This document shows, one piece after another, positions 18,471 through 33,738 of a stretch of DNA of 64,000 nucleotides. The stretch comes from a virus. Lineage: Duplodnaviria; Caudoviricetes. Under the pieces are notes generated by a model, which made no database searches, was not told where the DNA came from, and saw only the letters and a program-made list of their open reading frames with translations. Made by a program: the position numbers and the translations under genes. The first letter of the stretch is position 1. Each line of letters opens with the position of its first letter. The DNA is taken from IMG/VR virus record IMGVR_UViG_3300032093_000121, positions 62 to 64,061 of that record; one strand, written 5' to 3'.

Positions 18471-18932
18471 TCAATTCGCAGCGTAACTTACGACCTCGAG
18501 GCCAGCCTGCTTCATCATCTCGAGCCCAAGGAGGCAGGAGGATTTCCAGCGCTCCTCGTCCCAGCCGCCAGCCGACTTCTGGAAGTAGACGACGCGCTTG
18601 ATCCCGGCGTTGATGATGACGCCAGCGCACCGTTCGCAGGAAGGACCGTGTCCAGGAGGCCACGAGTATAGCGTCGCACCGCGAAGATCGTCGTGAGCGT
18701 TGAGGATCGCATTGACCTCGCCGTGAACGACTCGCCGGTACTTCTCCTCGCGGTTGTTCCAGATTTCGAGGGACTGGTCTGTTCCTCTTGGGAAATCGTT
18801 GCAGCCTTGGGAGACGAGGCGACCGTCCTTTACGACGACTGCCCCGCACTTCGTCGAGGGATCAGGAGAGTCCAGAGAGGCCACTCGGGCCATCTCCAGA
18901 AACTGACGATCAGCTTTCTCGATAACGTCCAT
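18471..18932 (-). CDS. dCMP deaminase
   Basis: S.DPSTKCGAV, G.N.FPRG, VVHGEVNAI, PSCERC, AGIKRVV; start MDVIEK coupled by TAATG. Confidence 0.92.
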   Translation of the reverse strand: MDVIEKADRQFLEMARVASLDSPDPSTKCGAVVVKDGRLVSQGCNDFPRGTDQSLEIWNNREEKYRRVVHGEVNAILNAHDDLRGATLYSWPPGHGPSCERCAGVIINAGIKRVVYFQKSAGGWDEERWKSSCLLGLEMMKQAGLEVVSYAAN

Positions 18933-19654
18933 TAGACGATCCCCTCGTCCCGCTGGTGGAGCATCATCGCGAGATTGGCGACGTCGACCGGATCGCCCTT
19001 CTGCACGTGATTGCGGAGCATGTGAGACAGCTCTGCCTGAGAGCAGGCTTCCTTGTCTTCCCAGCCGCCGCGACCCTCGGCCCGCTTCTGCGCCAGCTTG
19101 TCCTTCATGGCCTCGGCGAATGCGTCGACCGCATCGTTGTCCGAGTGAGGAAGGATCGGCAGTTGCAGAACACGGTCCAGCTTCGGAGGCGAGTAGTTCG
19201 GCCCCTTCACGACGCGACCGGCGCTGCTCGTCACCGGCTTGCCGTTCTCGTCCAGCTTGCTCATGTTCGAGCGATGGACTTCGCGCAGACCGAGGTTCTT
19301 GTACTCGGAGAGCCCAAGAGTGATGTAGGTCCCGTCGACGACGTAGCTGAGATCCACCAGCGCGTCGAAGCACTCGACGATATCGCGATTGATCATGCCC
19401 TCCGAGAGCTCGGCCAGTTCTTCCTGGATAAGCTGAAGACGGATAAGGACGAGCGCCCCGGCCTCGTCTCCCTGCTCGCGAGCAGCCTGAGCATTCTGCT
19501 TCAGACGCTCACCGAGTTCGGCAGCGGCGACATGGTAGCTGGCGAGAGCTCCGGTCGCGTAGCTGGCGTAGACAGGGACTTCTGGCTTCGTCCCGATGAA
19601 TGCGCCGAAGACAGCCTGGAACTGTCGAACGAGCGTGATGCCAAGATCTTTCAT
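18932..19654 (-). CDS. MazG-like NTP pyrophosphohydrolase with an extra C-terminal helical domain
   Basis: LIQEELAEL, DALVDLSYV, EVHRSNMSKL, G.V.KGP.Y.PP. Confidence 0.85.
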   Translation of the reverse strand: MKDLGITLVRQFQAVFGAFIGTKPEVPVYASYATGALASYHVAAAELGERLKQNAQAAREQGDEAGALVLIRLQLIQEELAELSEGMINRDIVECFDALVDLSYVVDGTYITLGLSEYKNLGLREVHRSNMSKLDENGKPVTSSAGRVVKGPNYSPPKLDRVLQLPILPHSDNDAVDAFAEAMKDKLAQKRAEGRGGWEDKEACSQAELSHMLRNHVQKGDPVDVANLAMMLHQRDEGIV

Positions 19655-19885: not shown

Positions 19886-21955
19886 TTAATGGATATCTCC
19901 CCAATTAGGGCCGACTTCAGTGTCGACCTTGAACGGGACCATTGGCGACGCGACCTCCAGGATAGAGGTCCTCATGATATCGCCAGCGGCCACTGCCTCT
20001 GCGACGGAGCCGAAGCTGCCGTCGATTTCGTCGTGGACCTGAAGCTGGATATAGTACCCAGCCCGATCCAGATCGATAACTGCCTTCTTGGTCTGGTCGG
20101 CAGACGATCCCTGAATGACTCGGTTCAGCGCCTTATGTGTCCAGTCGTACGAGCCATCCGGACGCTGAGTGAAGTGCAGGCGGCGACCCATGATGGTTCG
20201 CACGAAACCGACACTCTCGGCCCTCTTGCTCGCTTTCTGGGCAATGCCACGGACATATGGAACTTCGGTATCGAAGTTGTCCAGGATCGCCTGACCTTCC
20301 AGACCGGCGACTTCACGAATGATGCCGTCACCTGCCGCTGCTCGAGCCGACCATGCCTCGTGGCGGTTCTCAAAATACTGAGTTTCCTTCTTGGAACCGT
20401 AGCCTCGGTGGAGAGCCCAGCGAGTGGGAAGACCGATGTCTTCGCAGAGCTTGGCACCGCCTTCACCGTAGCAGAGGCCGAGGAAGATCTGCTTGGAGTA
20501 GCCGCGATTGACCTTGTACGACTTCTTGTCGTTCTCGAACCAGTCCTCGACCTGAGCGTCGCCGTGGATCAGCCGGGTCATCATATCGTGGTTGTCAGTG
20601 TCCGGATTGTCACGGTAGCGACGAGCGGCTTCCTCGGCTTTCGGCAAACCCATCACCGCAGCGAAGTGAGTCGTCCAGCGTGGCTCCTGCTGACTGTAGT
20701 CGTTGACGCCCCAGATCGCTCCCTCCTCAGGGATGAAAATCTTTCGCCACTCCAGGATGATCTGCGGGTCGTCCGGTTGAACGCGATCTGGAGAATACTG
20801 CTGCTGAAGGTTCGGGTCGGTCGCTGACAGACGTCCGTAGCGAACTCCCTTCTGCTCGCCGCCTTCGTCCTCTCGTGCGATCTGGTGGAAAGTGCAGTGA
20901 ATTCGCCCATTGGTCGCATACCGATGAATGGAGGCCGCGAAGGTCGTGCGGATCTTGTTCACCTTGCGAGCGTTGGATATCGCTTTCGCAACCGGATGCT
21001 TCAGACCTTCCAGCATTTCTGCGTCGATCTGCGGAGCGCCAGTGCTCGTCTTTCCGAGCTTCACTCCCAGCGACTCAAGGGCCGGTGCGAGAGCTCCAGC
21101 CTTCCAGACATCGCCGACAGCGACATTGACCCCGGTTTGATCGCGAACGAAACGAAGAGCCTCGATCTCCTCGTTCAGCGCTCTCTCCTCGATCTCCCGC
21201 AATTTCTCAAAGTCGATCCGGACACCTCGCTGTCGCATCTTGACCAGCACCGGGAGAAGGGCTGTCTCCAGATCGAACACCTGCCACAGATCGTCTTTGT
21301 CGATGACCTCGCGCTGCTTCTCGTAGATGAGCAGGGGAGCGTCCACGTCGTTCTCTGCGTACTCGCCAACGTAGCGAGCGGGAAGCCTCCACATTCCGGC
21401 ACCGGGGTCCAGCCCCATGGAGCGGGCAGCTTCGAAGAGAACGTCAGTCTCCTTACCCTTGACTCCCCACCGCTCGCCGATGTTCTTCAGGCTATACGAA
21501 TGGTGAAGTTCGTAGATCAGCGGATCGGCGATTTGAATGTCACGGAACTTAACGTCCTGATGAAACTCGATACCGTCCGTGGCAGCGTAGTCGATATCAT
21601 ACGACAAGTTCGCGCCAACGATTTCGCCATCGAAGTTCTTCAGCTGCTCACGGAGATACCCGAGGACTGCCTCCACTGGCAGATTGTCCCCGCCCTCGTG
21701 GCGAATGGGAAGATAGTGTTTCGGCCCTCCCTCGATCTTGAAGCCCCATCCAGTGGTGTAGCCTCCTCTCCTTGGGCCAGGTCCGAGATCACGGAGCTGA
21801 CTGTCCTTGGTTTCGCAGTCAAGTGCAACCCGCTTCGCTCCAGCCCAAGAAGGGAGGGAGCTCATCTCGGGTGCGCGCCAGGAACTGTCAGGCATCAAGA
21901 AACTCATCTGGACTGCGCCTCCTAGATTGGGGTTATGCTTTTTCTTGGTTGCCAT
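19886..21955 (-). CDS. polA: Family A DNA polymerase with 3'-5' exonuclease
   Basis: ALDCET, GRLS..PNLQQ, DYSQQEPR, K.IFLGLCYG, IQGSSAD, LQVHDEI. Confidence 0.95.
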   Translation of the reverse strand: MATKKKHNPNLGGAVQMSFLMPDSSWRAPEMSSLPSWAGAKRVALDCETKDSQLRDLGPGPRRGGYTTGWGFKIEGGPKHYLPIRHEGGDNLPVEAVLGYLREQLKNFDGEIVGANLSYDIDYAATDGIEFHQDVKFRDIQIADPLIYELHHSYSLKNIGERWGVKGKETDVLFEAARSMGLDPGAGMWRLPARYVGEYAENDVDAPLLIYEKQREVIDKDDLWQVFDLETALLPVLVKMRQRGVRIDFEKLREIEERALNEEIEALRFVRDQTGVNVAVGDVWKAGALAPALESLGVKLGKTSTGAPQIDAEMLEGLKHPVAKAISNARKVNKIRTTFAASIHRYATNGRIHCTFHQIAREDEGGEQKGVRYGRLSATDPNLQQQYSPDRVQPDDPQIILEWRKIFIPEEGAIWGVNDYSQQEPRWTTHFAAVMGLPKAEEAARRYRDNPDTDNHDMMTRLIHGDAQVEDWFENDKKSYKVNRGYSKQIFLGLCYGEGGAKLCEDIGLPTRWALHRGYGSKKETQYFENRHEAWSARAAAGDGIIREVAGLEGQAILDNFDTEVPYVRGIAQKASKRAESVGFVRTIMGRRLHFTQRPDGSYDWTHKALNRVIQGSSADQTKKAVIDLDRAGYYIQLQVHDEIDGSFGSVAEAVAAGDIMRTSILEVASPMVPFKVDTEVGPNWGDIH

Positions 21956-22112
21956 TCTTTTCCTCGTACCTTCTCCACGCCAGAGCGGCATTCATTAGAG
22001 CTTCAGCCTCGGTGGCCCCGGTTCCGTGATGACCCGGACCCTGCTTGATGTCGCAGCGCCACGAATGACCCTGTATCGGAGAGGCTTGCGGATAGATAAC
22101 GATTGTAACCAC
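21933..22112 (-). CDS. 59-aa HicB-N-terminal-like protein, not in the ORF track
   Basis: Manual translation MVTIVIYPQASPIQGHSWRCDIKQGPGHHGTGATEAEALMNAALAWRRYEEKNGNQEKA; AAGGGG SD. Confidence 0.55.
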   Translation of the reverse strand: MVTIVIYPQASPIQGHSWRCDIKQGPGHHGTGATEAEALMNAALAWRRYEEKNGNQEKA

Positions 22113-22131
22113 GAATGAACCCCTTTATTGC

Positions 22132-22272
22132 GACTGTCAGACGGCGCTGGCCTTTGGTTGCCGTGCTAGGCTAGGCCAGCGCCGCGCTCGGAGGGCCTCT
22201 GAGGGCCTCGCCGTGCTAGGGTGGCATATACCCTAAGCCGTTGCGCCCCGCCCGCCAGCGGCCTTCTGAGCG
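22132..22272. repeat. TCWGAG-box island C (inverted relative of B)
   Basis: GACTGTCAGA, CTCGGAG/CTCTGAG pair, GCCAGCGGCCTTCTGAG; TC/GA-free spacers. Confidence 0.7.
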
Positions 22273-22763
22273 GTCTGGAGCAGGTCGTTTAACCGCCCCA
22301 TCGTGGCCGCTCGTTCAGACTCTGACTCATCGTACTGGAAGAGGTTCAAGATGCCCCAGAGAGCCATCTCGTCTTCCCGCTCAATGTTGTTGGCGGCGAT
22401 GAAACGATGTGTCGCAGCGCAGCCATCACGGAGGAAGAAATCGTGGTTGAAGAAGTTCTTGCACCCACTTGCGATATACTTCTCGACATAGTGGATCGCC
22501 TTCTGAACGTCCTCAGCCCCGTTCTTCTTGCGCCACCGGATGATGTATTTCGTCGCACACCCGATGACATAGGGAATGTCATGATCGATGACCCAGTCCC
22601 AATGCTGATAGGGAGAGCGATAGTGCTCTCCCCCGACTTGACGGTCGTTGACTTGCTCTGTGTTGAATTGCTCCATGCGGTTCCCTCTGTCACAAGTTGG
22701 ATCGCGGCAGTCGTCGTACTCGTAGCGTTCCCTGCCGCAAGGACAGCCCCGGTCGTGGCTCAT
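22233..22763 (-). CDS. DUF3310 protein (family of T7 gp1.7 nucleotide kinase)
   Basis: QVGGEHY, GCATKYIIRWRKKNG.EDVQKAIHY. Confidence 0.8.
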   Translation of the reverse strand: MSHDRGCPCGRERYEYDDCRDPTCDRGNRMEQFNTEQVNDRQVGGEHYRSPYQHWDWVIDHDIPYVIGCATKYIIRWRKKNGAEDVQKAIHYVEKYIASGCKNFFNHDFFLRDGCAATHRFIAANNIEREDEMALWGILNLFQYDESESERAATMGRLNDLLQTAQKAAGGRGATA

Positions 22764-23353
22764 GCCAGCAACCTCTGAATGATGTGGCCTGTCCGCTCCG
22801 GACGAAGGTCGACCTCGTCCAGCCGCTTCCGGAGAGCCTCCGCTTCCTTGGGCAGAGGCCGGGTCACCCAAGCCTCCTCGAGAGCCAAGATGCATTCCTC
22901 AGCGAACCGATTGCCGAGGAACAACTGCTCCTTGCTCCAGAGCCAGAGTTCCAGATGATCGCAGGCTTTCAGCTTGCGGTGATCGTCCTCCGACAGGTCG
23001 CTCTCATTCGGCAGCCCGAGGGAGTGGCTGATGAGAGTTTCCATGCCAGCGATGCCTTCCCGGAGCCCAGGAATGTGACGCAGCGGAGGAGCGGGAATGT
23101 CGCCGACGACCCGCTCGGGAACGTCGTGTGCCAGACAGGCGAGAGCCAGCCGGGGGAAGTCCTCCGGCCAGAGATAGTGCATCAGCATGGCGACGCCCCA
23201 CGAGTGAGCAGCGTTGCTGTAGGAGCCGAGATGAACGACGCCGTGGCACCGCTCGACCTTCCCGCCAGCCCTGCTCTCGATCACGTTGCGAGCGGTCCTG
23301 GCGACCTCGGAGATCGTGGCCGGTTCGTCCCGGCAGTCATCATAGTGACCCAT
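22760..23353 (-). CDS. HD-domain 5'-deoxynucleotidase (YfbR-like)
   Basis: R.H, SNAAHSW, LAHDVPE..VGDIPAP, LKACD.LE. Confidence 0.85.
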   Translation of the reverse strand: MGHYDDCRDEPATISEVARTARNVIESRAGGKVERCHGVVHLGSYSNAAHSWGVAMLMHYLWPEDFPRLALACLAHDVPERVVGDIPAPPLRHIPGLREGIAGMETLISHSLGLPNESDLSEDDHRKLKACDHLELWLWSKEQLFLGNRFAEECILALEEAWVTRPLPKEAEALRKRLDEVDLRPERTGHIIQRLLA

Positions 23354-24414
23354 CAGCTTGCACTCCGCTTGCGACGCTCGAGCCACTCGGTCGCGGCCAG
23401 CTTCCAGTCGCTGGCTTCGCACGACTCCAAATGACGGAGAGCGTCGGTGAAACGGTTCTTGTTGTCACGGTCCTTGTAGGAGAACCATGCGTTCCACATG
23501 GGGCTGACGACCTTGCGGAAGAAGCGATCCTGGAACCCTGGGATCGGTCCGCTTTCCATGAACATCAGCAGATCGCCGATCCACGCTTCGATGGGACCGT
23601 TAACCATCGGGAACGGCTGAACGACTGGCTGGTTCTTGCGACCGTACTGATACGGATCGATCTCGAACTTGCCGAACTCGCCGCGCTCGATCAAGCTCTT
23701 ATGCTTGTCGAAGACATTGACGTAGGCGTGCCAGTCATTGCTGACTTGCCAGTAGCGACCGACCGGAACACCGATCCACCCTGCCATGAATTCCTGGAGC
23801 ATGGACATGTGAACTGCGTTCGCGCCGTATGCACCCCAGATGATATCATTGGAGCGATTGAGGACGGTCATGTTGAGGCGACCGTCGGTGCCGATCTTGA
23901 AGTAGATCTGCGTATTGCAGGGAACGTCCTTGCCGACGCGACCGAGATCGGACTCGGCATCCCACATTTGGAGGACGCAGCGTCGCTCCTTGGGATTCTT
24001 CTTCAACATTTCGGCGATCTGCTGAAGCTGGTTGAACGGGACATATTCGGGGCTGTCCTCGTCTGGGCCGATGTCAGTCACGAAATGGTTGATCCAGCGA
24101 TAGCCGTAGGCTCCGTGGAAGGTTTCGCCATCGTCGCTGAACTGACTGATGTTCGCGCTGAACTGCGAAATCCAGCCGACGTCGTTCCGTCCAGCCAGCA
24201 TCCACAGACCTTCCATGAAGTGGAAGAATGGGTTGGCGTCCCGATCAGCCCAGAAGAGAACCCGTTCGGTCGGTTTCTCGTAGAGCGTGGTGACAGGGGT
24301 CTTCGCAACCAGAACATCGCCAGCGCGACTCTCGTTGCGAACCCCGTCGCTTGCCAGAGTGGCCATCCCCTTGTAGAGAGCCTCCTGGACGTTTCGTACT
24401 TCTAGGACTTTCAA
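23353..24414 (-). CDS. dUMP hydroxymethylase (thymidylate synthase fold)
   Basis: RDANPFFH..E.LW, GAYGYRW, KDVPCN, RSNDIIWGAYGAN (Asn indicates dUMP specificity), WHAY; TTG start with GGAGG SD. Confidence 0.85.
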   Translation of the reverse strand: MKVLEVRNVQEALYKGMATLASDGVRNESRAGDVLVAKTPVTTLYEKPTERVLFWADRDANPFFHFMEGLWMLAGRNDVGWISQFSANISQFSDDGETFHGAYGYRWINHFVTDIGPDEDSPEYVPFNQLQQIAEMLKKNPKERRCVLQMWDAESDLGRVGKDVPCNTQIYFKIGTDGRLNMTVLNRSNDIIWGAYGANAVHMSMLQEFMAGWIGVPVGRYWQVSNDWHAYVNVFDKHKSLIERGEFGKFEIDPYQYGRKNQPVVQPFPMVNGPIEAWIGDLLMFMESGPIPGFQDRFFRKVVSPMWNAWFSYKDRDNKNRFTDALRHLESCEASDWKLAATEWLERRKRSAS

Positions 24415-24415
24415 C

Positions 24416-24622
24416 TCAGCCTCCTGTGATCTCTTTAATGATGAGATCGGCGGGACCGTCGACCTCGGCGATTTTCGCAGCGATCTCAGCAGGTGTGAGA
24501 TCGATGAACTTCCCGGCGATGACTGCCGCCGTGAGAAGATTGACGAATGTGAGGCGAGGATCACCGGAGGCGTTGTTCGCCATCGTGAGAACTGCCGCTA
24601 TCGTGTGAGTGGGATTCAACAT
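24416..24622 (-). CDS. Hypothetical protein
   Basis: TGATG coupling inside the modification operon. Confidence 0.6.
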   Translation of the reverse strand: MLNPTHTIAAVLTMANNASGDPRLTFVNLLTAAVIAGKFIDLTPAEIAAKIAEVDGPADLIIKEITGG

Positions 24623-24828
24623 CAGTTCAGGTTCCTCAGAGGTATGAAGCCAGTGGACCAGAACCATTTCTCGTCACTGACTTCTTCGAACGAGTAGAAG
24701 AGCTGGCCGAAGATGTTCTTCCGGTCCAGGACTGTCAGCCGCATTCCCTGATGGAGCGCCTCGAACTTATCTCCGTAGGCGTTCCACCAATCGTCATGCT
24801 GACAGATGCACTTCTCGCCGCGCTCCAT
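24622..24828 (-). CDS. Hypothetical protein
   Basis: AGGAG SD, 1 nt after the GT stop. Confidence 0.6.
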   Translation of the reverse strand: MERGEKCICQHDDWWNAYGDKFEALHQGMRLTVLDRKNIFGQLFYSFEEVSDEKWFWSTGFIPLRNLN

Positions 24829-24829
24829 G

Positions 24830-25609
24830 TCAGGCTCCTGCCGATGCCCGAGCCTTCTTCCAGAAGACTGTCACTTCGGTGCGGTTGCCGAACTCGCCGC
24901 CAGTCTTGTTTTCCTTCTGGCGAATGTTCACGAAGCCGGGGTGGAGCTCGGCCAGCCGGTGAGCCGAGACCGCTTGGGTCTCCAGGGTGCGATAGTCGGA
25001 CGATCCGCCTGGAGCGTTGGTCCCGCCCTGATTGTAGCAGAACTCGGACAGCAGATGGTTGTCGAAGCCCAACCGGAGAAGCTGGAGGTTCACGTCGAAG
25101 TCGTTCATCGGATTCATGCGATCGTGGATCACACGCTCGTCGAGGAACATGCTGCGACGGTAGATGATGCAGCCGTTGAGACGCGTATTCGCGTTGCCCT
25201 CGGGCTCGAGCCGATTGTTGCCCTGACGCATGGAGACGCCGACACCGTAGAGGTTGCTGTTCTTGGCGAACAGACCCTCGATGGCCTCGACCATGTCGTC
25301 CCAGTCGTCATCTTCCATCTTGCGGAGCTGAGGCTCGAACGGATCGCTGCGACGGAAGAACACGAAGTCGTCGTCGCAGAGCATCACGAGTTCATCGGTG
25401 GCGTCCTTGGCCATCTGCTCCAGCTTGCGACCGAGCAGGTCGTTCAGCGTGGTCACCGACTTGATGGTCAGGCTTGGATTGGCGGCTTGGTAGTCGCCCT
25501 TCTGCTCGACTGCGACATAGACCGTCGTGTTCGCGAGGTACTTCTCGGGAATGTTCGACGGGGTGACCATCGTCTTGGGACGAGAGCGGGACGGGATCAG
25601 AATCTGCAT
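24830..25609 (-). CDS. GT-A DNA glycosyltransferase (T-even glucosyl-hmC glucosyltransferase / TAGT-like)
   Basis: ILIPSRSR, LCDDD, NDFDVNLQLL..G, GTNAPGGSS.YR, L...HP.FV. Confidence 0.8.
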   Translation of the reverse strand: MQILIPSRSRPKTMVTPSNIPEKYLANTTVYVAVEQKGDYQAANPSLTIKSVTTLNDLLGRKLEQMAKDATDELVMLCDDDFVFFRRSDPFEPQLRKMEDDDWDDMVEAIEGLFAKNSNLYGVGVSMRQGNNRLEPEGNANTRLNGCIIYRRSMFLDERVIHDRMNPMNDFDVNLQLLRLGFDNHLLSEFCYNQGGTNAPGGSSDYRTLETQAVSAHRLAELHPGFVNIRQKENKTGGEFGNRTEVTVFWKKARASAGA

Positions 25610-25632
25610 ATTAACCTCCAATGGATAGGCTC

Positions 25633-25661
25633 AGTATAGCCTCTTACTGTTCAGATGACAA
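25633..25661 (-). promoter_or_regulatory. Motif-family promoter 8, driving GT-TS-HD-DUF3310
   Basis: TTGTCA-tctgaac..(N17)-TATACT, overlapping the galE 3' end. Confidence 0.75.
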
Positions 25662-26594
25662 GCGCAGTGTTTCAGCTTCCCACGCGTCCCGGCACATTTG
25701 ATCCATGGTGCGACGCGCCTCCCAGCCGGTCGCAGCCTTGATCGCCCCGGAGTTCGACACGCTGTATTCCAGATCGCCGGTTCGCTTGAGATCGACCATC
25801 GTCTTGGGAATGTCGCGGTTGATCACCTTCTCCATATACTCGACGATCGTGCCGATCTTGTATCCCTTGCCACTGCCGACATTGAAGACATGATGACCGG
25901 TGAGGCCTTCCAGACGGAAGTGGACTTCGGCCAGATCGGAGACGTGAATGAAGTCTCGGACGTTCTCGCCGTTGTTGAAGATCGGCAGAGAGCGGACCCG
26001 GCCAGCCGCCGCTCCGGTGAGCATCGACATGAAGGTATTGGAGCGATACTGCGGAAGCAGAAGATGCGCCGCGATCGGATTGAAGTAGCGAAGAGTGATC
26101 GCTGTCTTCCCTCTCTGGGCAAAGTCGGCGACCATTTCCTCAGCCATCATCTTGCTCCGGCCGTATGCCGAAGTCGGCTTCACCGGAGAATTCTCCGACA
26201 CAGGGAAGCGGCTCTCACCGTAGACTGCGGCCGAGGATGAAAAGACCAGTCGGTCCATTCCGCTGTCCAGCATCGCCTGAAGAACGGTCACGGTTCCGTT
26301 CACGTTCCTCTCGTAATACTGGAGAGGGATCTCCTCCGACTCGCTGGCGTCTTTCAGTCCGGCAGCATGAATGGTGAGGTCCGGACGGAACTTCCGCATG
26401 GAGTCCGTGAGAAGGGCGCGATCGAGAATGTCGCCCTTGACGATCCAAGCCCCTCGGGAGCCCAGGAAGGAGACAAGTCCTGGTCCGGAGTTCGACAGAT
26501 CGTCGAAGATCATGACCTTGTGTCCCTGGACGAGCGCTTGCAGTGCGATATGGGAGCCGATGTATCCGGCTCCCCCGGTGATGAGTATCCGCAT
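25644..26594 (-). CDS. galE: UDP-glucose 4-epimerase-like SDR
   Basis: ITGGAGYIGSH, AGLK..ES...PL.YY..NV.GT, FSSSAAVYG, YGRSK, LRYFNP, RDFIHV.DLA. Confidence 0.9.
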   Translation of the reverse strand: MRILITGGAGYIGSHIALQALVQGHKVMIFDDLSNSGPGLVSFLGSRGAWIVKGDILDRALLTDSMRKFRPDLTIHAAGLKDASESEEIPLQYYERNVNGTVTVLQAMLDSGMDRLVFSSSAAVYGESRFPVSENSPVKPTSAYGRSKMMAEEMVADFAQRGKTAITLRYFNPIAAHLLLPQYRSNTFMSMLTGAAAGRVRSLPIFNNGENVRDFIHVSDLAEVHFRLEGLTGHHVFNVGSGKGYKIGTIVEYMEKVINRDIPKTMVDLKRTGDLEYSVSNSGAIKAATGWEARRTMDQMCRDAWEAETLRLSSEQ

Positions 26595-26600
26595 GGTGTT

Positions 26601-27509
26601 CTACCTCGGTTTGTATCTGGAGCGGGGACGACCCTGCCCGAGCCTGACTCGCTCGTACTTGTCGAACTCGCAGAGTTGGAATTGGATGTCCGTCGGGTAG
26701 AGATGACCATATTCCGACGGCCAGTATTCTCCCTGGATTTCGGTGAGCTTGAGGATCACCTCCAGAGCTTGGGACGGACGGAGAGTGTTGTGCTCCGGCC
26801 AGTCGTGTCCACACAGTCGAGCGGCTCCCTTGAGGCCTCCAGGGCCGATCGGAGTCCACTTGCTGTAGTCGGCGGGGAACATGACGTCGTAGTCGCCCTG
26901 CTTCACCTTCGTCGTGTCCCAGAAGTCCGTCATCATGGTGTCAAGGAGGATCTCCTTGGTCATGAAGCCGGTGCCTCCAAAGCCGCCGATCACGGACATT
27001 GCACGAGCGACTTTCTCCCAGCTCCTTGTCATTTGAACGACTTGAAGCAACTCAGGAACCGCTGCGTGAAGATCCTTCATGAAATAGTTGACGACGACAT
27101 CCTGCTTCGGGGCACTGATGCCCTGATTGGTGACGACGTAGGCTCCGGTGAAGACCCTCTGCCCAGAGGCGAGGCGACGTCTCGCAGTGTCTGCGATCTC
27201 CTCGAAGTCGAAGGTGTCGTAGTCCTGCCAGCCGACGGCATCGGCGAACTCGTATGTCCCGAAGTAACGGAACAGAGCGCAGTTCATCAGGATCGAGCGA
27301 CGATCGTCATCGCGGTGTTCCGCATAGAAGTTCTCGCGGAGCATGGTCGTGGTCCAGTCGTAGTGACGACGGACGTTGGTGAACTTGAAATCCTGGAGGA
27401 TTTGATCGCTCGTCCAGGGACGAGGCAGGCCCGCCTCCTTACGGAGACGGACCTGCTCGCGCTCTGCCATAAAGGCGAAGAACGCGCCGGTGTTGACCGG
27501 CGCTTCCAT
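26601..27509 (-). CDS. 5-hmdU DNA kinase (aGPT-Pplase1 family)
   Basis: FF.FM.ERE.VR.RK.AG.P.PWT.D.IL..FKFTNVRR..D..T, FTGAY, GF...E, GPG, Q..LCEFDKY.R. Confidence 0.88.
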   Translation of the reverse strand: MEAPVNTGAFFAFMAEREQVRLRKEAGLPRPWTSDQILQDFKFTNVRRHYDWTTTMLRENFYAEHRDDDRRSILMNCALFRYFGTYEFADAVGWQDYDTFDFEEIADTARRRLASGQRVFTGAYVVTNQGISAPKQDVVVNYFMKDLHAAVPELLQVVQMTRSWEKVARAMSVIGGFGGTGFMTKEILLDTMMTDFWDTTKVKQGDYDVMFPADYSKWTPIGPGGLKGAARLCGHDWPEHNTLRPSQALEVILKLTEIQGEYWPSEYGHLYPTDIQFQLCEFDKYERVRLGQGRPRSRYKPR

Positions 27510-28279
27510 TACGCGGTCTTCGCAGCGGCGGCGTCGGCCTTGGCCTTGTCGTCGGCGGCCTTCTTGTCGGCCTTGGCCTTGTCAGCCGCAGCCTTGGCTT
27601 CGGCCTTCTCGGCATCCTTCTTGGCCTTGGCGTCGGCCTTGGCCTTGGCGTCGGCTTCCTTCTTGGCCTTGGCCTCTTCGGCCTTCTTGGCGCGCTCTTC
27701 TTCGCGCTTCTTCTTGGCCGCGTTGGGGTTCTCGAGGCCGTTGCGCTGATACCACGCGTCGACACCGGCCTGGAATTCTTCGTCGGTCGGGTCGTGCAGC
27801 TTGACGAAGCCGTTCTCGGCGTACCAGTAGATGTCGAGCGGCGTCATGTTCGCGCCCTCGATGGTCTCGAGAACGGTCATGCCGTCAGTGTAGTTGTTCC
27901 AGCGTTCCTTGACGCGATCGGGTTCCTTGATCTTTTCGATCTTGCGGAACATGCCGCGAGTCGGCCGCTTGACGGTGGCCGGTTCGGCGCCCTTGACGTG
28001 ACGGGGCTCCTTCGGCTCCTTGGGAGCAGCAGGCTTCTTGCCCGCCTTGGTGTCGGTCGAATTGGCCAGATCGGCCTCGGCAGTGCCGGCGAACTTCTGC
28101 AGGGCCTTCCAGGTCGCGTCCTTGGCCTGAGCGTGGTCCTTGAAGTTCTTGATGCGAGCGACGCCGAGGTTTTCGGCAACGAGGTTGCGAAGCTGAAGCA
28201 GGTCGGCTTCGCTCATGTTGTTCACCGACTCCTGCGTGTAGGCAGTCGAGTTGAACTGGACAGTTTCGGTATCAGCCAT
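27509..28279 (-). CDS. Candidate DNA-binding protein with a long Ala/Lys tail, paralog of 32..529
   Basis: AAGGAG SD, strongly C/G-ending codons, TAATG coupling to the kinase. Confidence 0.8.
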   Translation of the reverse strand: MADTETVQFNSTAYTQESVNNMSEADLLQLRNLVAENLGVARIKNFKDHAQAKDATWKALQKFAGTAEADLANSTDTKAGKKPAAPKEPKEPRHVKGAEPATVKRPTRGMFRKIEKIKEPDRVKERWNNYTDGMTVLETIEGANMTPLDIYWYAENGFVKLHDPTDEEFQAGVDAWYQRNGLENPNAAKKKREEERAKKAEEAKAKKEADAKAKADAKAKKDAEKAEAKAAADKAKADKKAADDKAKADAAAAKTA

Positions 28280-28339
28280 TTGATCGGTCTCCTTTTCTGA
28301 GGTCTGAGAGGACTGGTGTTGCTCCTCACTGGCTCAATA

Positions 28340-28368
28340 ACAATGGCACATCGCCACGCTCAGAGCAA
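28340..28368 (-). promoter_or_regulatory. Sigma70-like promoter heading the modification operon
   Basis: TTGCTC-N17-CATTGT. Confidence 0.45.
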
Positions 28369-28394
28369 CACCAAACATTCTGCCGCCGACGATC

Positions 28395-30251
28395 CTAGTC
28401 GGCGCAGTCCCCGGTACGAGCTCCCGTAACGGGATCGAACGAGCAGGCTTCACCCTCGACGACAGCCTGGAGTTCCACTCGCTGGATCTCTTCGGCGTTC
28501 ACCTTGGGTTCGTCCTTCTCGTCGTTCGACTTGACGACCTCGTCGTAGTTCCCATTGGGCCGATAAGTCGTGCAGCCCTTGGCTCCACCCTCGTAGGCCA
28601 TGAGATACAGGTTCTTGAAGTCGTTGTAGGGAAGGTTCGTCGGCACGTTGCAGGTCTTGCTGACGGCAGAGTCTGTGTGACGCTGAGCCATCGTGAGAAC
28701 TGCGACATGCTCCTCGGCGGTGACGTCTACCATGCGGCGACCGTGAACACCGAGCTTGTTGACGCCGAAGTCAGGGACATCGACGATGATTGGTCCTTCA
28801 GGCATGATGATCCGGCGCTGCTGGCTGTAGCCGAAGATTGGCTCGATGCCAGAGGACACGTTGTCAGCGCAGAACGAGATCGTGCCGGTGGGAGCGATCG
28901 ATGTCAGATGCGAGTTGCGGATGCCCTGCCGCTGAATCAGCTCCTGGACATCTTCGTCGAGCGACTGGATGAACTTGGACTGACCGTACTTCTCGGCGTC
29001 GAACAGAGCGAACGAACCCTTGGCAGCGGCGAGATTGGAACTCGCGATATAGCAGTGACGAGTGATGAAAGCGAGGATCTTCCCCTCGATCTCCACGAAC
29101 CCCGGCGAGCCGTAAGGATGACCCATTGCCTCGATAGCGTTGGCGAGACCGGTCACGCCGAGACCCATCCTTCGCTTCGATTGGGCTTCCTGGCGCTGCT
29201 GAGGAAGAGGATAGCGAGCGCGATCGACGATGTTGTCCATCGCACGAACAACTTGCGGAATGTCCTCTTCCAGGAGATCGTAGTCGAACTCCCAGGAGTC
29301 ACCGTTTTTGACGAGATATTGCGGCAGGTTGAACGAGCCCAAGAGGCAGGCTCCGTAGGGAGGCAGAGGCTGCTCGCCGCAGGGATTGGTCGCAGCGATC
29401 GTCTCGCAGTACCAGAGATTGTTCATCTTGTTGATCGTGTCGATGAACAGCACTCCGGGCTCCGCCCAGTCGTACGTCCCGCGCATGATCATTTCCCAGA
29501 GCGCCTGAGCGTCGACCTCGCGGTAGACTTCACCACCGAACCGGAGCGGGAACGGCTTCCCGCTGGCGAGGCACTCCATGAACTCGTCCGTAATGGCGAC
29601 GCTCATGTTGAAGCCGGACAGAGGACGAAGATCGTAGCGGTGGTGCTTCTTGATGAACTCCGCCAGATCGGGGTCCACCTGCTTCGAGCGAATGAACAGC
29701 TCGATATCCGGATGGTCCACCCGCATGACCATCATCTGCGCCCCGCGACGATTGCCAGCCGACGAGGTCGCTTTGCAGTAGTCGTTGAAGATAGGGGCGA
29801 AGGCCAGAGGACCGTCTGTGGTGGACTGGACACCACGGATGAGATCACCGCGAGGGCGAAGGGTGCTGAAGTCGTAGCCGACACCGCCGCCCTGACGCAT
29901 GGTGATCGCAGCCAGCTTGCCCATATCCGCGATACTGACAGGAGGGAACTGGCCGGGAAGGAGGGCCTTGATTTCCTCGTCGGTTGGACCGTCGGTGAAA
30001 CTGTCGTGGAAAGCTGGCATCACGAAGCAGTTGTAGGGAGTCACGTTCTTGAGACTTCCCATCGCCGACTGGACACGCCCAGGAGGCATGAAGCGCATCG
30101 TCAGAAGGATCTGCCGGAACGCCATATAGTGATCGTGATCGTCTTGGAGGGAAGCAGCGATGCGGTTCATCGCCTCACGAAAGTTCTCCCCCTTGCCGCG
30201 ATACTTCTCCGCGTGAGTAGCATCGCATTCAGGAACGCTTGGTCCAATCAT
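28395..30251 (-). CDS. nrdJ: Class II (adenosylcobalamin) ribonucleotide reductase
   Basis: NCFV, GGGVGYDFS.LRP, RRGAQM, NPCGEQ, APTGTIS, C-terminal Cys pair; no beta subunit gene seen. Confidence 0.92.
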   Translation of the reverse strand: MIGPSVPECDATHAEKYRGKGENFREAMNRIAASLQDDHDHYMAFRQILLTMRFMPPGRVQSAMGSLKNVTPYNCFVMPAFHDSFTDGPTDEEIKALLPGQFPPVSIADMGKLAAITMRQGGGVGYDFSTLRPRGDLIRGVQSTTDGPLAFAPIFNDYCKATSSAGNRRGAQMMVMRVDHPDIELFIRSKQVDPDLAEFIKKHHRYDLRPLSGFNMSVAITDEFMECLASGKPFPLRFGGEVYREVDAQALWEMIMRGTYDWAEPGVLFIDTINKMNNLWYCETIAATNPCGEQPLPPYGACLLGSFNLPQYLVKNGDSWEFDYDLLEEDIPQVVRAMDNIVDRARYPLPQQRQEAQSKRRMGLGVTGLANAIEAMGHPYGSPGFVEIEGKILAFITRHCYIASSNLAAAKGSFALFDAEKYGQSKFIQSLDEDVQELIQRQGIRNSHLTSIAPTGTISFCADNVSSGIEPIFGYSQQRRIIMPEGPIIVDVPDFGVNKLGVHGRRMVDVTAEEHVAVLTMAQRHTDSAVSKTCNVPTNLPYNDFKNLYLMAYEGGAKGCTTYRPNGNYDEVVKSNDEKDEPKVNAEEIQRVELQAVVEGEACSFDPVTGARTGDCAD

Positions 30252-30507
30252 CGAGTTCTCCTAACTTCTCCTGGGCCTTCGCCAGATGATATTGTGCCTC
30301 TTCAATCCACGACTTTCGTACCGTCCGCTTCACGATGGAAGTGACGATCAGAAAGCCTGCTCGGCATATGTGAACATGCGCCGAGTCTAGTATCTTCGCT
30401 ATCCCAGGACGATCAGTCGATGACCGCTCGTCAGTTCTCTCATCATAATTGGTTCGCTCCTCAGGAGCGGAACCGTGTCGACCTCTGGAGCTACGATCAG
30501 TATCCAT
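30229..30507 (-). CDS. Hypothetical protein
   Basis: Fills the gap; start uncertain. Confidence 0.35.
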   Translation of the reverse strand: MDTDRSSRGRHGSAPEERTNYDERTDERSSTDRPGIAKILDSAHVHICRAGFLIVTSIVKRTVRKSWIEEAQYHLAKAQEKLGELDDWTKRS

Positions 30508-32024: not shown

Positions 32025-32876
32025 TTAGAACGGAGCCTTTTCGGGATCGTTGCCGCCAGCCGAGCCGCCACCACCTTCGGCAGTCGCAGACTGCTGTTGG
32101 TTGAAGTCAGCACGAGCGACACCCGAGAGTACCATGTCGCGGAAGTTCATCGCTTCCTGGAGGAGGTTTCCCTCAACCGAAGGATCGATCAGAGACTTGG
32201 CCCAAGTTTCCTTCAACGGACTGATGTTGAAGTTGAAGAAGGAGCCAGCCTCATTCTTCTGCTTGATGGTGCGGAGCCGAGCACGATTCGCGAACATCGG
32301 AGGCTTGCCCTTGATGAGATACATCGAGGTCAGCCAGTCGCGATACGGCTTGATCTTCGTGGAGCTGAAGGAAATCACCGCGAACGATTCGACCTCGGTT
32401 CCTTCCTCGTTCAGGATCAGCCCGTAGACGTAGTAGGTCTCAATGACCTCGTTGTCGCCGTGCTTGAACGAAATTCGCTTCCCATCAGTTCCCTTCGGCG
32501 GAATACGAGTTCCACCATTGTTCTTGATGAGATCCTTCACCAGCTCGCCGTTCGGGTCATGCAGAGTGACAAAGCCACCACCCTTGATGCGAGGAACCCA
32601 TTCGACCCACGCTTCCTCCTTATGAACAGGAAGGAAGATGACCTGCTCCGTCAGTTCGCCGGTCACGGTGTTGAGCATGAGTCCTGGCTTCGCGCCCTCA
32701 ATCGCACCTTCCTCGACTTCCGGCGAGTTTGACTGAAGGAGGTTGATGAACGGAATGGAAAGGTCAGTGCCTTTCGTATCCTCGAAGCCGACTCCGGCCA
32801 TTTCACCGTAATTGAAGTTTCCGACAGAAACTGCCGTTCCCTTTTCTTCGGCCTTTGCTACGTCTTTTCCAGCCAT
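32025..32876 (-). CDS. Putative ssDNA-binding / annealing protein
   Basis: G.E....DLSIPFI.LLQ.NSPE; flexible tail ending APF; lies between helicases. Confidence 0.6.
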   Translation of the reverse strand: MAGKDVAKAEEKGTAVSVGNFNYGEMAGVGFEDTKGTDLSIPFINLLQSNSPEVEEGAIEGAKPGLMLNTVTGELTEQVIFLPVHKEEAWVEWVPRIKGGGFVTLHDPNGELVKDLIKNNGGTRIPPKGTDGKRISFKHGDNEVIETYYVYGLILNEEGTEVESFAVISFSSTKIKPYRDWLTSMYLIKGKPPMFANRARLRTIKQKNEAGSFFNFNISPLKETWAKSLIDPSVEGNLLQEAMNFRDMVLSGVARADFNQQQSATAEGGGGSAGGNDPEKAPF

Positions 32877-32894
32877 GACTGGTATCCTTTCGTT

Positions 32895-33080
32895 GTTGAA
32901 CGTTGATGCCTCTACTTTAAGACAGCTGACCCGAGGCTCCGGTCAACCGAATTAGGATTGGAGGTTCAGGACACATCCTGCGTTTAGCTCAGCGGCAGAA
33001 CGGGCGAGACGTTCACTTGGGCGAATCCACTTGTTCCGAGCATTTCGTCCTCTGGGCCTTTCGATCCAGATCCTCCAATG
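32895..33080 (-). ncRNA. Candidate structured RNA leader
   Basis: ATTGGAGG/CCTCCAAT closing stem enclosing several hairpins. Confidence 0.4.
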
Positions 33081-33082
33081 TG

Positions 33083-33652
33083 TTAATTCGCTCCTTTGAT
33101 TTTCGAGAAGCGCTGACGGAATACGCCGAAGAGATCCAGCGGAAGATCGGAGCCTTCGCCAAGCTGTTCACGAACAAAGGCGTCCAGCGTCTGCCAATGA
33201 ACGTTTTCTTCCTTCTTGACGTTGAGCGGAGTCTTGGACTGTCCGAGTTGCTTTTCGAACTCTTTCGCCCATTCTTCTTGGTCACGACCAAATTCAATAA
33301 TGAAGCGCCGCTTGATGAGCGCACCATGACCGTTTTCGTTGAGCCACCCGAAAGCGAGAGGTTTCTTGTCGCTCGTGATGCTGGCTCGGATCTTCTCAGA
33401 GATCGTGATGGTACGACCATCGGGCAGATTGAGCTTGCCCTCGATACCATCCATCAGCTTGGGAATTTCGTGCTCGGTGATTCGCTGGAGGTTCTTCTTG
33501 GCCTCATCCAGCAGGAGCTCGAGTCGCTCCACTTCGGCCTGAGCGGCCTCTTGTTCGTCGGCAAGAGCGACGAGTGCTCCCATAAGATTTCCACCAGGAG
33601 CGATGGTAGATTGCTCTTTGAAAGCTGAATAGTCCGGAATATCTTCGCTCAT
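33083..33652 (-). CDS. Conserved phage replication-region protein (coiled coil)
   Basis: AAGGA SD before MSEDIP; AF.WL..NGHG.LIK, VH.QTL.AFVRE. Confidence 0.7.
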   Translation of the reverse strand: MSEDIPDYSAFKEQSTIAPGGNLMGALVALADEQEAAQAEVERLELLLDEAKKNLQRITEHEIPKLMDGIEGKLNLPDGRTITISEKIRASITSDKKPLAFGWLNENGHGALIKRRFIIEFGRDQEEWAKEFEKQLGQSKTPLNVKKEENVHWQTLDAFVREQLGEGSDLPLDLFGVFRQRFSKIKGAN

Positions 33653-33709
33653 GTCATGTCCTTTGTTATCCGTCACCGAGGGCCAGCACCGCGCCACCCC
33701 TCAGCCTAT

Positions 33710-33738
33710 GTCATAGCACCGCCCCGTTCATCTGACAA
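33710..33738 (-). promoter_or_regulatory. Motif-family promoter 9
   Basis: TTGTCA-gatgaac..(N17)-TATGAC. Confidence 0.6.

What the first reader, a model, noticed from the sequence alone, without database searches (positions are those of the whole stretch)
24830..27509. 5-hmdU kinase + GalE + DNA glycosyltransferase: candidate new sugar-hypermodified thymidine (base-J-like, possibly galactosyl)
Seen: consecutive genes for an aGPT-Pplase1-type 5-hmdU DNA kinase, a GalE-like epimerase and a GT-A glycosyltransferase, two small ORFs upstream of a dUMP hydroxymethylase. Established: in M6, ViI and phiW-14-type phages this kinase activates hmdU in DNA for an aGPT-Pplase2 amino-acid/amine transferase. 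The GT motifs match T-even enzymes that add a second glucose to glucosyl-hmC and the TAGT/base-J GT group. I recognise no aGPT-Pplase2, PLP, radical-SAM or TET/JBP gene here. Inference: GalE supplies UDP-Gal or UDP-GalNAc, and the GT adds it either directly to hmdU or to the kinase-made phosphate (a sugar-phospho-hmdU). I know of no characterised phage base of this kind, but I cannot search to confirm that.
Basis: partly seen in the sequence, partly recalled or inferred. Interest (0 to 1): 0.92.

Follow-up and report, generated by a model that had tools for sequence, protein, structure and literature searches.

The report
Kinase-less sugar-on-hydroxymethyluracil phage DNA cassette
This uncultured phage most likely swaps thymine for hydroxymethyluracil and hangs a galactose-type sugar on it, but the gene read as a DNA kinase is not a kinase, so the proposed phospho-sugar base has no basis.

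Summary
The three genes are there, on the minus strand, and the window is a whole 64-kb IMG/VR phage genome.

**The "kinase" is not a kinase.**
- The 302-aa product of 26601-27509 is only the helical PF18723 domain (old aGPT-Pplase1).
- Its fold is that of a DNA glycosylase or amino-acid:DNA transferase, and it has no P-loop.
- It matches M6 gp55. The true M6 kinase is gp54 (PF18748).
- No gp54 relative was found in this genome.

**What stands.**
- The thymidylate-synthase homologue has the M6-type dUMP-hydroxymethylase active site.
- The glycosyltransferase is a GT-A fold enzyme at the edge of the TAGT family.
- The epimerase just passes the GalE model.

**Best reading (about 0.55).** hmU replaces T and is glycosylated directly, with the phage GalE supplying UDP-Gal or UDP-GalNAc. 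The sugar-phospho-hmdU idea falls.

**Distribution.**
- Helical gene, GT and hydroxymethylase travel together in 76 of 80 related viral loci. Most have no kinase or transferase.
- GalE is an extra of this small clade and is deleted in one close relative.

**Prior notice.** The gene partnership is in print for pelagiphages (PMC9599517), and this scan has flagged the class before on other DNA. I found no chemical report of the product. Moderate interest: a new variant of a known kind.

The parts
26601..27509 (-). Helical aGPT-Pplase1 / PF18723 'HMUDK_hel' protein (302 aa). It has an HhH-glycosylase-like fold and is a paralogue of amino-acid:DNA transferases. It is not a kinase.
   Evidence: PF18723 E 1e-33 over residues 9-290. 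No Walker A. Model pLDDT 93.1. Best structural match is PaMx11 gp46 (8z2m_A), Z 9.6, rmsd 4.4 over 225 residues, followed by HhH-GPD glycosylases. Profile-profile match to an AADT alignment: E 4.9e-4, probability 32%, with invariant C280 on the AADT Cys. M6 counterpart is L085:6971-7942, PF18723 8e-56.
25644..26594 (-). GalE-type UDP-hexose 4-epimerase (316 aa).
   Evidence: PF01370 1.8e-51. TIGR01179 262.6 bits against cut-off 262.3. E. coli GalE E 6e-58, with SSS and YGRSK aligned and Ser opposite E. coli Y299. Intact in 3 of 4 close-relative contigs and internally deleted in L006.
24830..25621 (-). GT-A fold glycosyltransferase at the edge of the TAGT family, with a DDD (DxD) motif (263 aa from TTG; 259 aa from the ATG at 25609).
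   Evidence: PF20691 26.7-26.8 bits against cut-off 27.5; all 28 of 28 aligned relatives match TAGT at E<=0.001. phrog_842 E 1e-27. Invariant D79 D80 D81. Model pLDDT 92.5. Foldseek hits to GT2-type GT-A enzymes (K4CP, TarS, RmlT) at E about 1e-6.
24622..24828 (-). Small ORF (68 aa), unknown function.
   Evidence: No Pfam or PHROG hit. Homologues only in close relatives L005 and L006.
24416..24667 (-). Small ORF (83 aa), unknown function. Its stop lies 1 base before the TS-homologue start.
   Evidence: No Pfam or PHROG hit. Homologues in L004, L005 and L006. Junction read.
23353..24414 (-). Thymidylate-synthase homologue of dUMP-hydroxymethylase type (353 aa).
   Evidence: phrog_5131 E 4e-127. 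PF00303 2.7e-22. Aligned to Mtb ThyA, the catalytic Cys is kept, the L143 position is Asp, D169 is kept and N177 is kept. The same residues occur in 83 of 83 homologues, including the M6 enzyme. Residue rules come from PMC13326640, sections 24 and 28.
22760..23422 (-). HD-domain hydrolase (YfbR-like 5'-deoxynucleotidase type). Probably clears competing dTMP/dTTP or dUTP.
   Evidence: PF12917 24.9 bits against cut-off 25.9; phrog_6047 5e-38. Found after the TS homologue in most related loci. The role is inferred.
22233..22895 (-). DUF3310 protein, a candidate mononucleotide kinase for hmdUMP.
   Evidence: PF11753 27.4 bits against cut-off 24; phrog_236 'nucleotide kinase' 6e-13. Also present in M6, which has gp54 as its DNA kinase. 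The role is inferred.
18471..19373 (-). dCMP deaminase, a source of dUMP.
   Evidence: PF00383 2.4e-16.
19886..21991 (-). Family-A DNA polymerase of the same replication module.
   Evidence: ORF. A phmmer match (E<1e-5) to this window protein lies downstream of the TS homologue in PhiJL001 (annotated DNA polymerase gp28), in phi_M6 (annotated DNA polymerase) and in most IMG/VR loci. I did not scan this ORF against Pfam.

Best explanation
The cassette belongs to a pre-replicative thymine-replacement pathway followed by direct DNA glycosylation. No DNA kinase step is involved.

1. dCMP deaminase supplies dUMP.
2. The thymidylate-synthase homologue makes 5-hydroxymethyl-dUMP.
3. A DUF3310-type nucleotide kinase and host enzymes raise it to the triphosphate, while the HD hydrolase removes competing nucleotides.
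4. The phage polymerase puts hmU into DNA in place of T.
5. The TAGT-like GT-A enzyme then transfers a hexose from a UDP-sugar onto the 5-hydroxymethyl oxygen of hmU in DNA. The product would be a base-J-like nucleotide.
6. In this small clade a phage GalE, inserted between the helical gene and the GT, converts host UDP-Glc or UDP-GlcNAc into the 4-epimer. The sugar is therefore probably galactose or GalNAc rather than glucose.

The 302-aa helical protein is a paralogue of the amino-acid:DNA transferases and keeps their invariant cysteine. I read it as a base-flipping protein that acts on, or presents, C5-substituted uracil in DNA. Its reaction is unknown and does not depend on a kinase.

Shown here: gene content, families, folds, active-site residues and conservation of the gene set. 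Inferred: every chemical step, the DNA acceptor and the identity of the sugar.
For: **hmU precursor**
- The TS homologue keeps the catalytic Cys, D169 and N177 and has Asp at the L143 position.
- The M6 enzyme and all 83 of 83 homologues compared share these residues.
- By the rules in PMC13326640 this means a dUMP substrate, a non-methyl product, and not a 5hoC synthase.
- A dCMP deaminase lies nearby.

**No kinase**
- PF18748: 0 hits in the complete genome at E<=1. The phi_M6 control scored 1e-19.
- phmmer with M6 gp54 and the L028 kinase, run against every frame of 40 aa or more in the window at E<=10, found nothing.
- The only Walker-A ORFs are an AAA ATPase, a clamp-loader-like protein, a primase-helicase, a RecD-like helicase and the terminase. 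The last two are my reading from ORF size and motif, without a Pfam scan.

**GT**
- GT-A fold with an invariant DDD motif.
- All 28 of 28 aligned relatives match TAGT.
- TAGT-type GT-A enzymes put sugars on 5hmC in DNA. Those paired with an adjacent epimerase depended on it, with one exception (bioRxiv 10.1101/2023.12.21.572611, passages).

**Linkage**
- In 80 distinct related IMG/VR loci the TS homologue lies within 2.7 kb of the GT in 79.
- The helical gene is adjacent (gap of 150 bp or less) in 49 loci and within 3 kb in 24 more.
- ADDT occurs in 1 of 50 whole records.

**GalE**
- Passes the galE equivalog cut-off, with the catalytic Ser and YxxxK aligned.
- Lies directly between the helical gene and the GT.
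Against: - No chemistry exists for this phage or any relative that I could find.
- The window's GT falls 0.7-0.8 bit under Pfam's TAGT cut-off. The acceptor of this clade has never been tested.
- GalE passes its cut-off by only 0.3 bit. It evolves faster than its neighbours: 51-71% identity against 79-84%.
- GalE is reduced to an internally deleted remnant in the close relative L006. It may be dispensable, or the sugar may vary.
- The helical protein stays next to the GT and keeps a transferase-type Cys. This hints at a step my simple model does not use.
- Two complete genomes (G022 and MW202897) have the GT and the TS homologue without the helical gene. This fits direct glycosylation but leaves the helical protein's role open.
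- The genome search PF18748 screen missed a divergent kinase in G019 (18.7 bits). A kinase of an unrelated family cannot be excluded.
Confidence: 0.55

Rival explanations
1. The 302-aa protein is a 5-hmdU DNA kinase, and the GT adds a sugar to the kinase-made phosphate (sugar-phospho-hmdU) or works downstream of phosphorylation.
For: Pfam names PF18723 '5-hmdU DNA kinase, helical domain'. The gene lies next to the kinase in M6, in L028 and in L084.
Against: - The whole protein is the helical domain. It has no P-loop, and its fold is HhH-glycosylase/AADT-like.
- The characterised kinases are separate P-loop proteins (PF18748; Table 1 of PMC8989533).
- M6 gp55 was left out without loss of the kinase-plus-AADT product.
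- No kinase homologue is found in the window at E<=10, and kinase homologues occur in only 2 of the 80 distinct related IMG/VR loci (L028, L084).
Confidence: 0.04
2. The helical protein is an active Cys-dependent transferase or lyase working with the GT in a two-step chemistry. It might exchange the C5 substituent of hmU or glycosyl-hmU through an exocyclic-methylene intermediate. The final base would then not be a plain O-glycoside of hmU.
For: - Invariant C280 aligns with the AADT Cys. PMC13458397 reports that Cys as catalytic (passages).
- Invariant D190 aligns with AADT D162.
- The closest solved fold is AADT.
- The helical gene is adjacent to or near the GT in 73 of 80 loci, in both gene orders.
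- The pairing also occurs in unrelated cultured phages such as LuckyBarnes and phiRSL1.
Against: - The profile match is modest (probability 32%).
- The AADT metal residues E243/T244 are Gln/Phe here, and there is no phosphate leaving group without a kinase.
- Two complete genomes keep the GT and the TS homologue without it.
- The adjacency may only reflect a shared slot between two conserved genes, since M6 has the same helical gene and TS homologue without a GT.
Confidence: 0.2
3. The GT and GalE do not act on DNA. They would modify a host or virion glycan (LPS, teichoic acid, capsid or tail protein), and the DNA would carry plain hmU.
For: - The closest solved folds are wall-teichoic-acid and polysaccharide GT2 enzymes.
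- About 65% of GT-containing contigs in Pyle et al. had no base-modification neighbour.
Against: - The GT lies within 2.7 kb of the dUMP-hydroxymethylase homologue in 79 of 80 loci, inside the replication module.
- The family is named for, and tested on, DNA 5hmC.
- The best PHROG is the T-even DNA glucosyltransferase family.
Confidence: 0.1
4. The acceptor is a cytosine derivative (5hmC or 5hoC), not hmU.
For: TS homologues can make 5hmdCMP or 5hodCMP, and GTs then glycosylate those bases (PMC13326640). The closest solved sequence match is MilA CMP hydroxymethylase.
Against: - The N177 position is Asn, not Asp.
- D169 is Asp, not Asn.
- The signature is identical to that of the M6 enzyme.
- A dCMP deaminase is present.
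Confidence: 0.04

Closest known systems
Thymidine hypermodification clusters of Pseudomonas phages M6/YuA and PaMx11 (Lee et al. 2018, 2021: PMC5889632, PMC8989533)
   Same: The replication-module backbone is shared: RNR, the helical PF18723 gene, the dUMP-hydroxymethylase homologue with identical active-site residues, HD hydrolase, DUF3310, PolA and dCMP deaminase.
   Different: M6 has a P-loop kinase (PF18748), an AADT (PF18724), a PLP enzyme and a radical-SAM enzyme upstream of the helical gene, and Nmad5 after it. The window has none of these. It carries GalE and a GT after the helical gene instead.
Phage TAGT-type GT-A glycosyltransferases with a partner sugar epimerase ('subclass II' pathways; Pyle et al., bioRxiv 10.1101/2023.12.21.572611)
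   Same: A GT-A fold DNA glycosyltransferase lies directly next to a sugar epimerase. In the paper's assays GT activity depended on the epimerase, with one exception.
   Different: Those pathways make 5hmC after replication with a C5-methyltransferase and a TET-like oxidase. Here the precursor is hmU, made before replication by a TS homologue, and no Tet_JBP is present. I could not compare sequences because the supplements are closed.
TS + aG/PT-PPlase1 'partner AMGs' of HTVC023P-type pelagiphages (PMC9599517)
   Same: [quoted passage not shown]
   Different: The passages I saw report no epimerase and propose no product. Those phages are podoviruses of SAR11.
Alphaproteobacteria phage PhiJL001 (AY576273), gp19-gp24
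   Same: It is the closest cultured relative for the GT (34%) and the helical protein (31%). Gene order is helical gene, GT, then TS homologue.
   Different: It has no GalE. It has Nmad5 (gp23) between the GT and the TS homologue. I found no report of its DNA base.
Base J of kinetoplastids (JBP1/2 + JGT)
   Same: The predicted product type is the same: a hexose O-linked to 5-hydroxymethyluracil in DNA.
   Different: hmU is made there by oxidation of T in DNA. No JBP/TET is present here. The sugar is glucose there, and probably a 4-epimer here. Replacement there is about 1% of T (abstract listing), while here it is probably genome-wide.

Membership tests
5-hmdU DNA kinase (5-HMUDK; PF18748 HMUDK_HMUD1) | P-loop (Walker A) kinase domain matching PF18748 or M6 gp54 | tested here: not met
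   No Walker A in 26601-27509. PF18748: 0 hits in the genome at E<=1, with phi_M6 control at 1e-19. phmmer with two kinases at E<=10 found nothing in the window.
5-hmdU DNA kinase (5-HMUDK; PF18748 HMUDK_HMUD1) | ATP-dependent phosphorylation of 5-hmdU in DNA | not testable with these tools
   Needs a biochemical assay.
aGPT-Pplase clade 1 / PF18723 HMUDK_hel | Full-length match to PF18723 | tested here: met
   117.4 bits against cut-off 25, residues 9-290 on model positions 6-276 of 281. Confirmed by the genome search at 1.8e-34.
aGPT-Pplase clade 1 / PF18723 HMUDK_hel | Helix-hairpin-helix DNA-glycosylase-like fold | tested here: met
   Model pLDDT 93.1. All 22 chains with Z>=5 are AADT, HhH-GPD glycosylases or DUF2419; the top is 8z2m_A, Z 9.6, rmsd 4.4, 225 aligned.
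Amino acid:DNA transferase (AADT; PF18724) | Match to PF18724 | tested here: not met
   0 hits in the genome at E<=1. M6 gp51 scores 1.4e-46.
Amino acid:DNA transferase (AADT; PF18724) | Catalytic Cys plus metal-binding Glu/Thr four and three residues before it | tested here: inconclusive
   The helical protein's invariant C280 aligns with the AADT Cys, but Q276/F277 stand where E243/T244 do. The profile match has E 4.9e-4 and probability 32%.
TAGT (PF20691) DNA glycosyltransferases | Match to PF20691 over the gathering score | tested here: inconclusive
   26.7-26.8 bits against 27.5 for the window's protein. All 28 of 28 aligned relatives match at E<=0.001, best 6e-23.
TAGT (PF20691) DNA glycosyltransferases | GT-A fold with a DxD motif | tested here: met
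   Invariant D79 D80 D81. Model pLDDT 92.5. 304 PDB matches at E<=0.001, led by GT2-type GT-A enzymes.
TAGT (PF20691) DNA glycosyltransferases | Association with a TET/JBP dioxygenase | tested here: not met
   No PF12851 match in the genome at E<=1. A TS homologue supplies the hydroxymethyl base instead.
TAGT (PF20691) DNA glycosyltransferases | Transfer of sugar to a hydroxymethylpyrimidine in DNA | not testable with these tools
   Needs an assay on hmU-DNA.
UDP-glucose 4-epimerase GalE (TIGR01179) | Score over the equivalog cut-off, with catalytic Ser and YxxxK | tested here: met
   262.6 bits against 262.3. SSS and YGRSK align with E. coli GalE at E 6e-58. The margin is very thin.
dUMP hydroxymethylase (TS homologue) | Catalytic Cys; Asn at N177 (uracil); Asp at D169 (not a 5hoC synthase); non-Leu at L143 (hydroxymethyl product) | tested here: met
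   Alignment to Mtb ThyA. 83 of 83 homologues including M6 agree. Rules from PMC13326640, sections 24 and 28.
Base J system (JBP + JGT) | Thymidine hydroxylase of the TET/JBP family | tested here: not met
   No PF12851 match.

The most novel reading that the evidence does not exclude
The helical AADT paralogue is a working Cys-dependent enzyme that needs no kinase. Together with the GT and GalE it would build a thymine derivative that is not a simple O-glycoside. It might do so by exchanging the C5 substituent of hmU or galactosyl-hmU through an exocyclic-methylene intermediate. That would be a third, so far unknown route of thymidine hypermodification, shared by dozens of uncultured phages and several cultured ones.
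Probability: 0.15. Interest if true: 0.8.

Novelty: new variant of a known kind. Interest (0 to 1): 0.45.

Why it matters
If the prediction holds, a sizeable group of phages coat their DNA with a sugar on hydroxymethyluracil. That base type is otherwise known from kinetoplastid base J.

- Cultured members include PhiJL001, Brevibacterium phage LuckyBarnes and Ralstonia phage phiRSL1.
- In this clade the sugar would be a galactose-type epimer.
- This would extend phage DNA glycosylation from cytosine to thymine positions and offer new enzymes for labelling hmU.
- It would also define a new target class for modification-dependent host nucleases.

The finding carries a practical warning as well. 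The Pfam name 'HMUDK_hel' invites the misannotation 'DNA kinase' for a protein that is not one and whose real function is still open.

Tried and rejected
**Dead ends**
- A megablast of 22000-30300 against 50,697 phage records found nothing. There is no close cultured relative.
- The GT has no sequence match in the PDB at E<=1.
- The helical-family profile has no meaningful PDB sequence match. Foldseek gave nothing for it at E<=0.001. Only VIA-align was informative.
- A single-sequence hhalign of the helical family against M6 gp51 was weak (E 0.059). I built an 8-member AADT alignment and repeated it.
- Complex prediction of the helical protein with the GT gave 'no answer' (score 0.00). I draw nothing from it.

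**Method limits**
- The PF18748 screen of 50 related records found nothing. It is not reliable alone, because it missed a divergent kinase in G019 that scores 18.7 bits. I therefore repeated the question with phmmer on all frames.
- The 50 records were the longest contigs among 80 kept loci, out of 254 relatives found. The 30 shorter ones were not searched as whole records.
- In one search I dropped L007, which is the same contig as L008.
- I Pfam-scanned 39 of about 83 window ORFs. The structural half of the genome was not scanned.

**Literature searches for a glycosylated hmU in phage DNA**
- 0 papers.
- 32 papers, 20 listed.
- 38 papers, 20 listed.
- ('HMUDK'): 20 papers.
- 97 papers, 25 listed, all of the listed ones on eukaryotes or methods.
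- PhiJL001.
- 'Pplase1', 5 papers.
- None reports the product.
- Supplements were closed, so tables of contigs in Pyle et al. and Lee et al. may hold relatives of this cluster.
- Iyer et al. 2013 (PMC3763556) is not held. What I say about it is taken from how PMC8989533 and PMC5889632 describe it.
- The Carin-5/SP-15 type (PMC12686479) is a different system.

**From recall, not from any call**
- The Y299 gatekeeper rule for GalE.
- The idea that DUF3310 proteins are T7 gp1.7-like nucleotide kinases.

Full report
**What is there.** The window is G000:C1:62-64061, a 64,061-base IMG/VR virus record that CheckV rates as 100% complete. Nearly all genes run on the minus strand. The finding's three ORFs exist as described.

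- 26601-27509 (302 aa) matches PF18723 'HMUDK_hel' at E 1e-33 over residues 9-290.
- 25644-26594 (316 aa) matches Epimerase PF01370 at 1.8e-51.
- 24830-25621 (263 aa) matches TAGT PF20691 at 26.7 bits against a cut-off of 27.5. It also matches phrog_842 'beta-glucosyl-HMC-alpha-glucosyltransferase' at 1e-27.

Two small ORFs with no family follow. Next comes a thymidylate-synthase (TS) homologue (phrog_5131, 4e-127). It starts at TTG 24414, seven bases after an AGGAGG and one base after the stop of the 83-aa ORF. Further downstream lie an HD hydrolase, a DUF3310 protein, PolA and a dCMP deaminase.

**The 'kinase' is not a kinase.** A note from an earlier agent of this scan (e1-6034280) suggested this, and I tested it.

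- In phi_M6 the gene order is ADDT (PF18724, 1.4e-46), a PLP enzyme, a radical-SAM enzyme, a 187-aa P-loop protein matching PF18748 'HMUDK_HMUD1' (7.7e-18), and then a 323-aa PF18723 protein (8.1e-56).
- By gene order, the PF18723 gene is therefore gp55. The paper states that reactions without gp52, gp53 and gp55 still gave the kinase-plus-transferase product.
- The window's protein is the gp55 homologue. The helical domain fills the whole 302 aa, and there is no Walker A.
- Its confident model (pLDDT 93.1) is closest to the PaMx11 amino-acid:DNA transferase gp46 (8z2m_A: Z 9.6, rmsd 4.4, 225 aligned). HhH-GPD DNA glycosylases follow.

PF18748 finds nothing in the genome at E<=1, while the phi_M6 control rings at 1e-19. 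That screen later proved to miss a divergent kinase in a relative (below). I therefore also ran phmmer with M6 gp54 and that divergent kinase against every frame of 40 aa or more in the window at E<=10, and again found nothing. The only Walker-A ORFs are an AAA ATPase, a clamp-loader-like protein, a DUF5906 primase-helicase, a RecD-like helicase and the terminase. I named the RecD-like helicase and the terminase from ORF size and motif, without a Pfam scan.

**The base is hmU.** Aligned to Mycobacterium ThyA, the TS homologue keeps the catalytic Cys, has Asp at the E. coli L143 position, and keeps D169 and N177. PMC13326640 (sections 24 and 28) gives the rules:

- N177D marks dCMP enzymes.
- D169N marks 5-hydroxy-dCMP synthases.
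- A non-Leu at position 143 goes with hydroxymethylation.

All 83 of 83 homologues from the window, the related loci, PhiJL001, MW202897 and M6 share the same residues. M6 is a phage whose modified base derives from 5-hmdU. A dCMP deaminase fits a dUMP supply.

**The glycosyltransferase and the epimerase.**

- The GT model is confident (pLDDT 92.5). It matches GT-A/GT2 enzymes such as K4CP, TarS and RmlT at about 1e-6.
- D79-D80-D81 are invariant in 28 homologues. All 28 match TAGT, although the window's own copy sits just under the cut-off.
- Pyle et al. showed that phage GT-A enzymes of this kind put sugars on 5hmC in DNA. Those with an adjacent epimerase needed it, with one exception.
- The window's epimerase passes the galE equivalog model by 0.3 bit.
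- It aligns end to end with E. coli GalE at 6e-58, with the catalytic Ser and YxxxK in place. A Ser stands opposite Y299. By a recalled rule, this would allow N-acetylated substrates.

**How the set is distributed.** A profile of the GT found 254 relatives in IMG/VR, and 80 loci were kept.

- Across the 80 distinct loci, a TS homologue lies within 2.7 kb of the GT in 79.
- The helical gene is adjacent (gap of 150 bp or less) in 49 loci, within 3 kb in 24, further away in 3 and absent from 4. Two of those 4 have the GT at the contig edge.
- Both gene orders occur.

In the 50 longest records:
- PF18723 is present in 48.
- ADDT is present in 1.
- An epimerase is present in 5.

Details of those exceptions:
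- The record with ADDT (G019/L028) carries a full M6-like cassette, including a divergent kinase, placed in front of the helical gene, GT and TS homologue. Another locus (L084) has a kinase before the helical gene.
- Two complete genomes (G022, with terminal repeats, and circular MW202897) have the GT and the TS homologue but no helical gene at E<=1.
- GalE next to the GT is confined to the window's close relatives (GT identity 80-84%).
- GalE is more diverged than its neighbours, at 51-71% identity.
- In L006, GalE is an internally deleted remnant that keeps only its two ends.
- One distant locus (L027) has a different SDR next to its GT.

**The helical protein may be catalytic.**
- PMC13458397 reports an invariant catalytic Cys in the AADT family, with Glu and Thr just before it binding the metal.
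- In my 8-member AADT alignment these are E243, T244 and C247 in M6 gp51 numbering.
- Profile-profile comparison with 36 helical proteins gives E 4.9e-4 (probability 32%). It puts their invariant C280 on that Cys and D190 on AADT D162.
- Gln and Phe stand at the two metal positions.
- This is modest evidence, and I keep it as a rival or novel reading.

**Compared with what is known.**
- The backbone is that of M6-like phages, but the kinase/AADT cassette is replaced by GalE and a GT.
- The epimerase-GT pair works like Pyle's subclass II, but on a TS-made uracil base.
- The TS + aG/PT-PPlase1 partnership, sometimes with this GT family and a 5'-deoxynucleotidase, was described for pelagiphages in 2022, without a product.
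- Earlier agents of this scan reached the same 'kinase-less sugar-on-thymine' reading on other genomes.
- Seven searches found no chemical report of a glycosylated hmU in phage DNA. Supplements and Iyer et al. 2013 could not be read.

**Verdict.** The interpretation survives only in its simpler half: direct glycosylation of hmU, probably with a galactose-type sugar. It is a new variant of a known kind and of moderate interest. The role of the helical protein is the real open question.

Noticed in passing
L028:4187-10705 (record G019, 70,898 bases, 100% complete): A hybrid cluster in one operon: ADDT, PLP enzyme, radical-SAM enzyme, a divergent P-loop kinase (PF18748, only 18.7 bits), the helical gene, a TAGT-type GT and the TS homologue. 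This phage may carry both an amino-acid-type and a sugar-type thymine modification. L084 also has a kinase directly before the helical gene and GT.
   Followed up: partly
L006:7214-7468: In a close relative (GT 80% identical) GalE is an internally deleted remnant. The first 32 residues and the last ~20 codons (in another frame) remain, about 700 bases are gone, and the helical gene and GT stay intact.
   Followed up: partly
window 8216-9023 (-): Adjacent YAcAr/SLOG (PF10686) and NADAR (PF08719) genes, next to an Rv2179c-like 3'-5' exoribonuclease gene (9020-9658). This could be a nucleotide- or ADP-ribose-related counter-defence pair.
   Followed up: no
window 11291-11827 (-): A weak match to the T4 endonuclease V-type pyrimidine-dimer DNA glycosylase (PF03013, 25.3 bits against cut-off 23).
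   Followed up: no
window 27509-28279 (-): A 256-aa protein with no family hit and a long Lys/Ala/Asp-rich tail, directly upstream of the helical gene. It is conserved in close relatives and matches PhiJL001 gp18.
   Followed up: no
L027:9033-9998: A distant member of the class has a different SDR overlapping the start of its GT. Its best matches are weak hits to dTDP-glucose 4,6-dehydratase and UDP-xylose-synthase models, not GalE. The sugar donor probably differs between lineages.
   Followed up: partly
window 32025-34084 (-): Three genes match Pam3 gp32, gp33 and gp34-like families (PF23992, PF23984, PF23977). Pam3 itself carries an aGPT-Pplase2. The window's phage shares modules with that cyanophage lineage.
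   Followed up: no
method: The genome search first look with PF18748 returned no candidate in G019, although a divergent kinase is there. Absence calls for this short P-loop family need a second method.
   Followed up: yes
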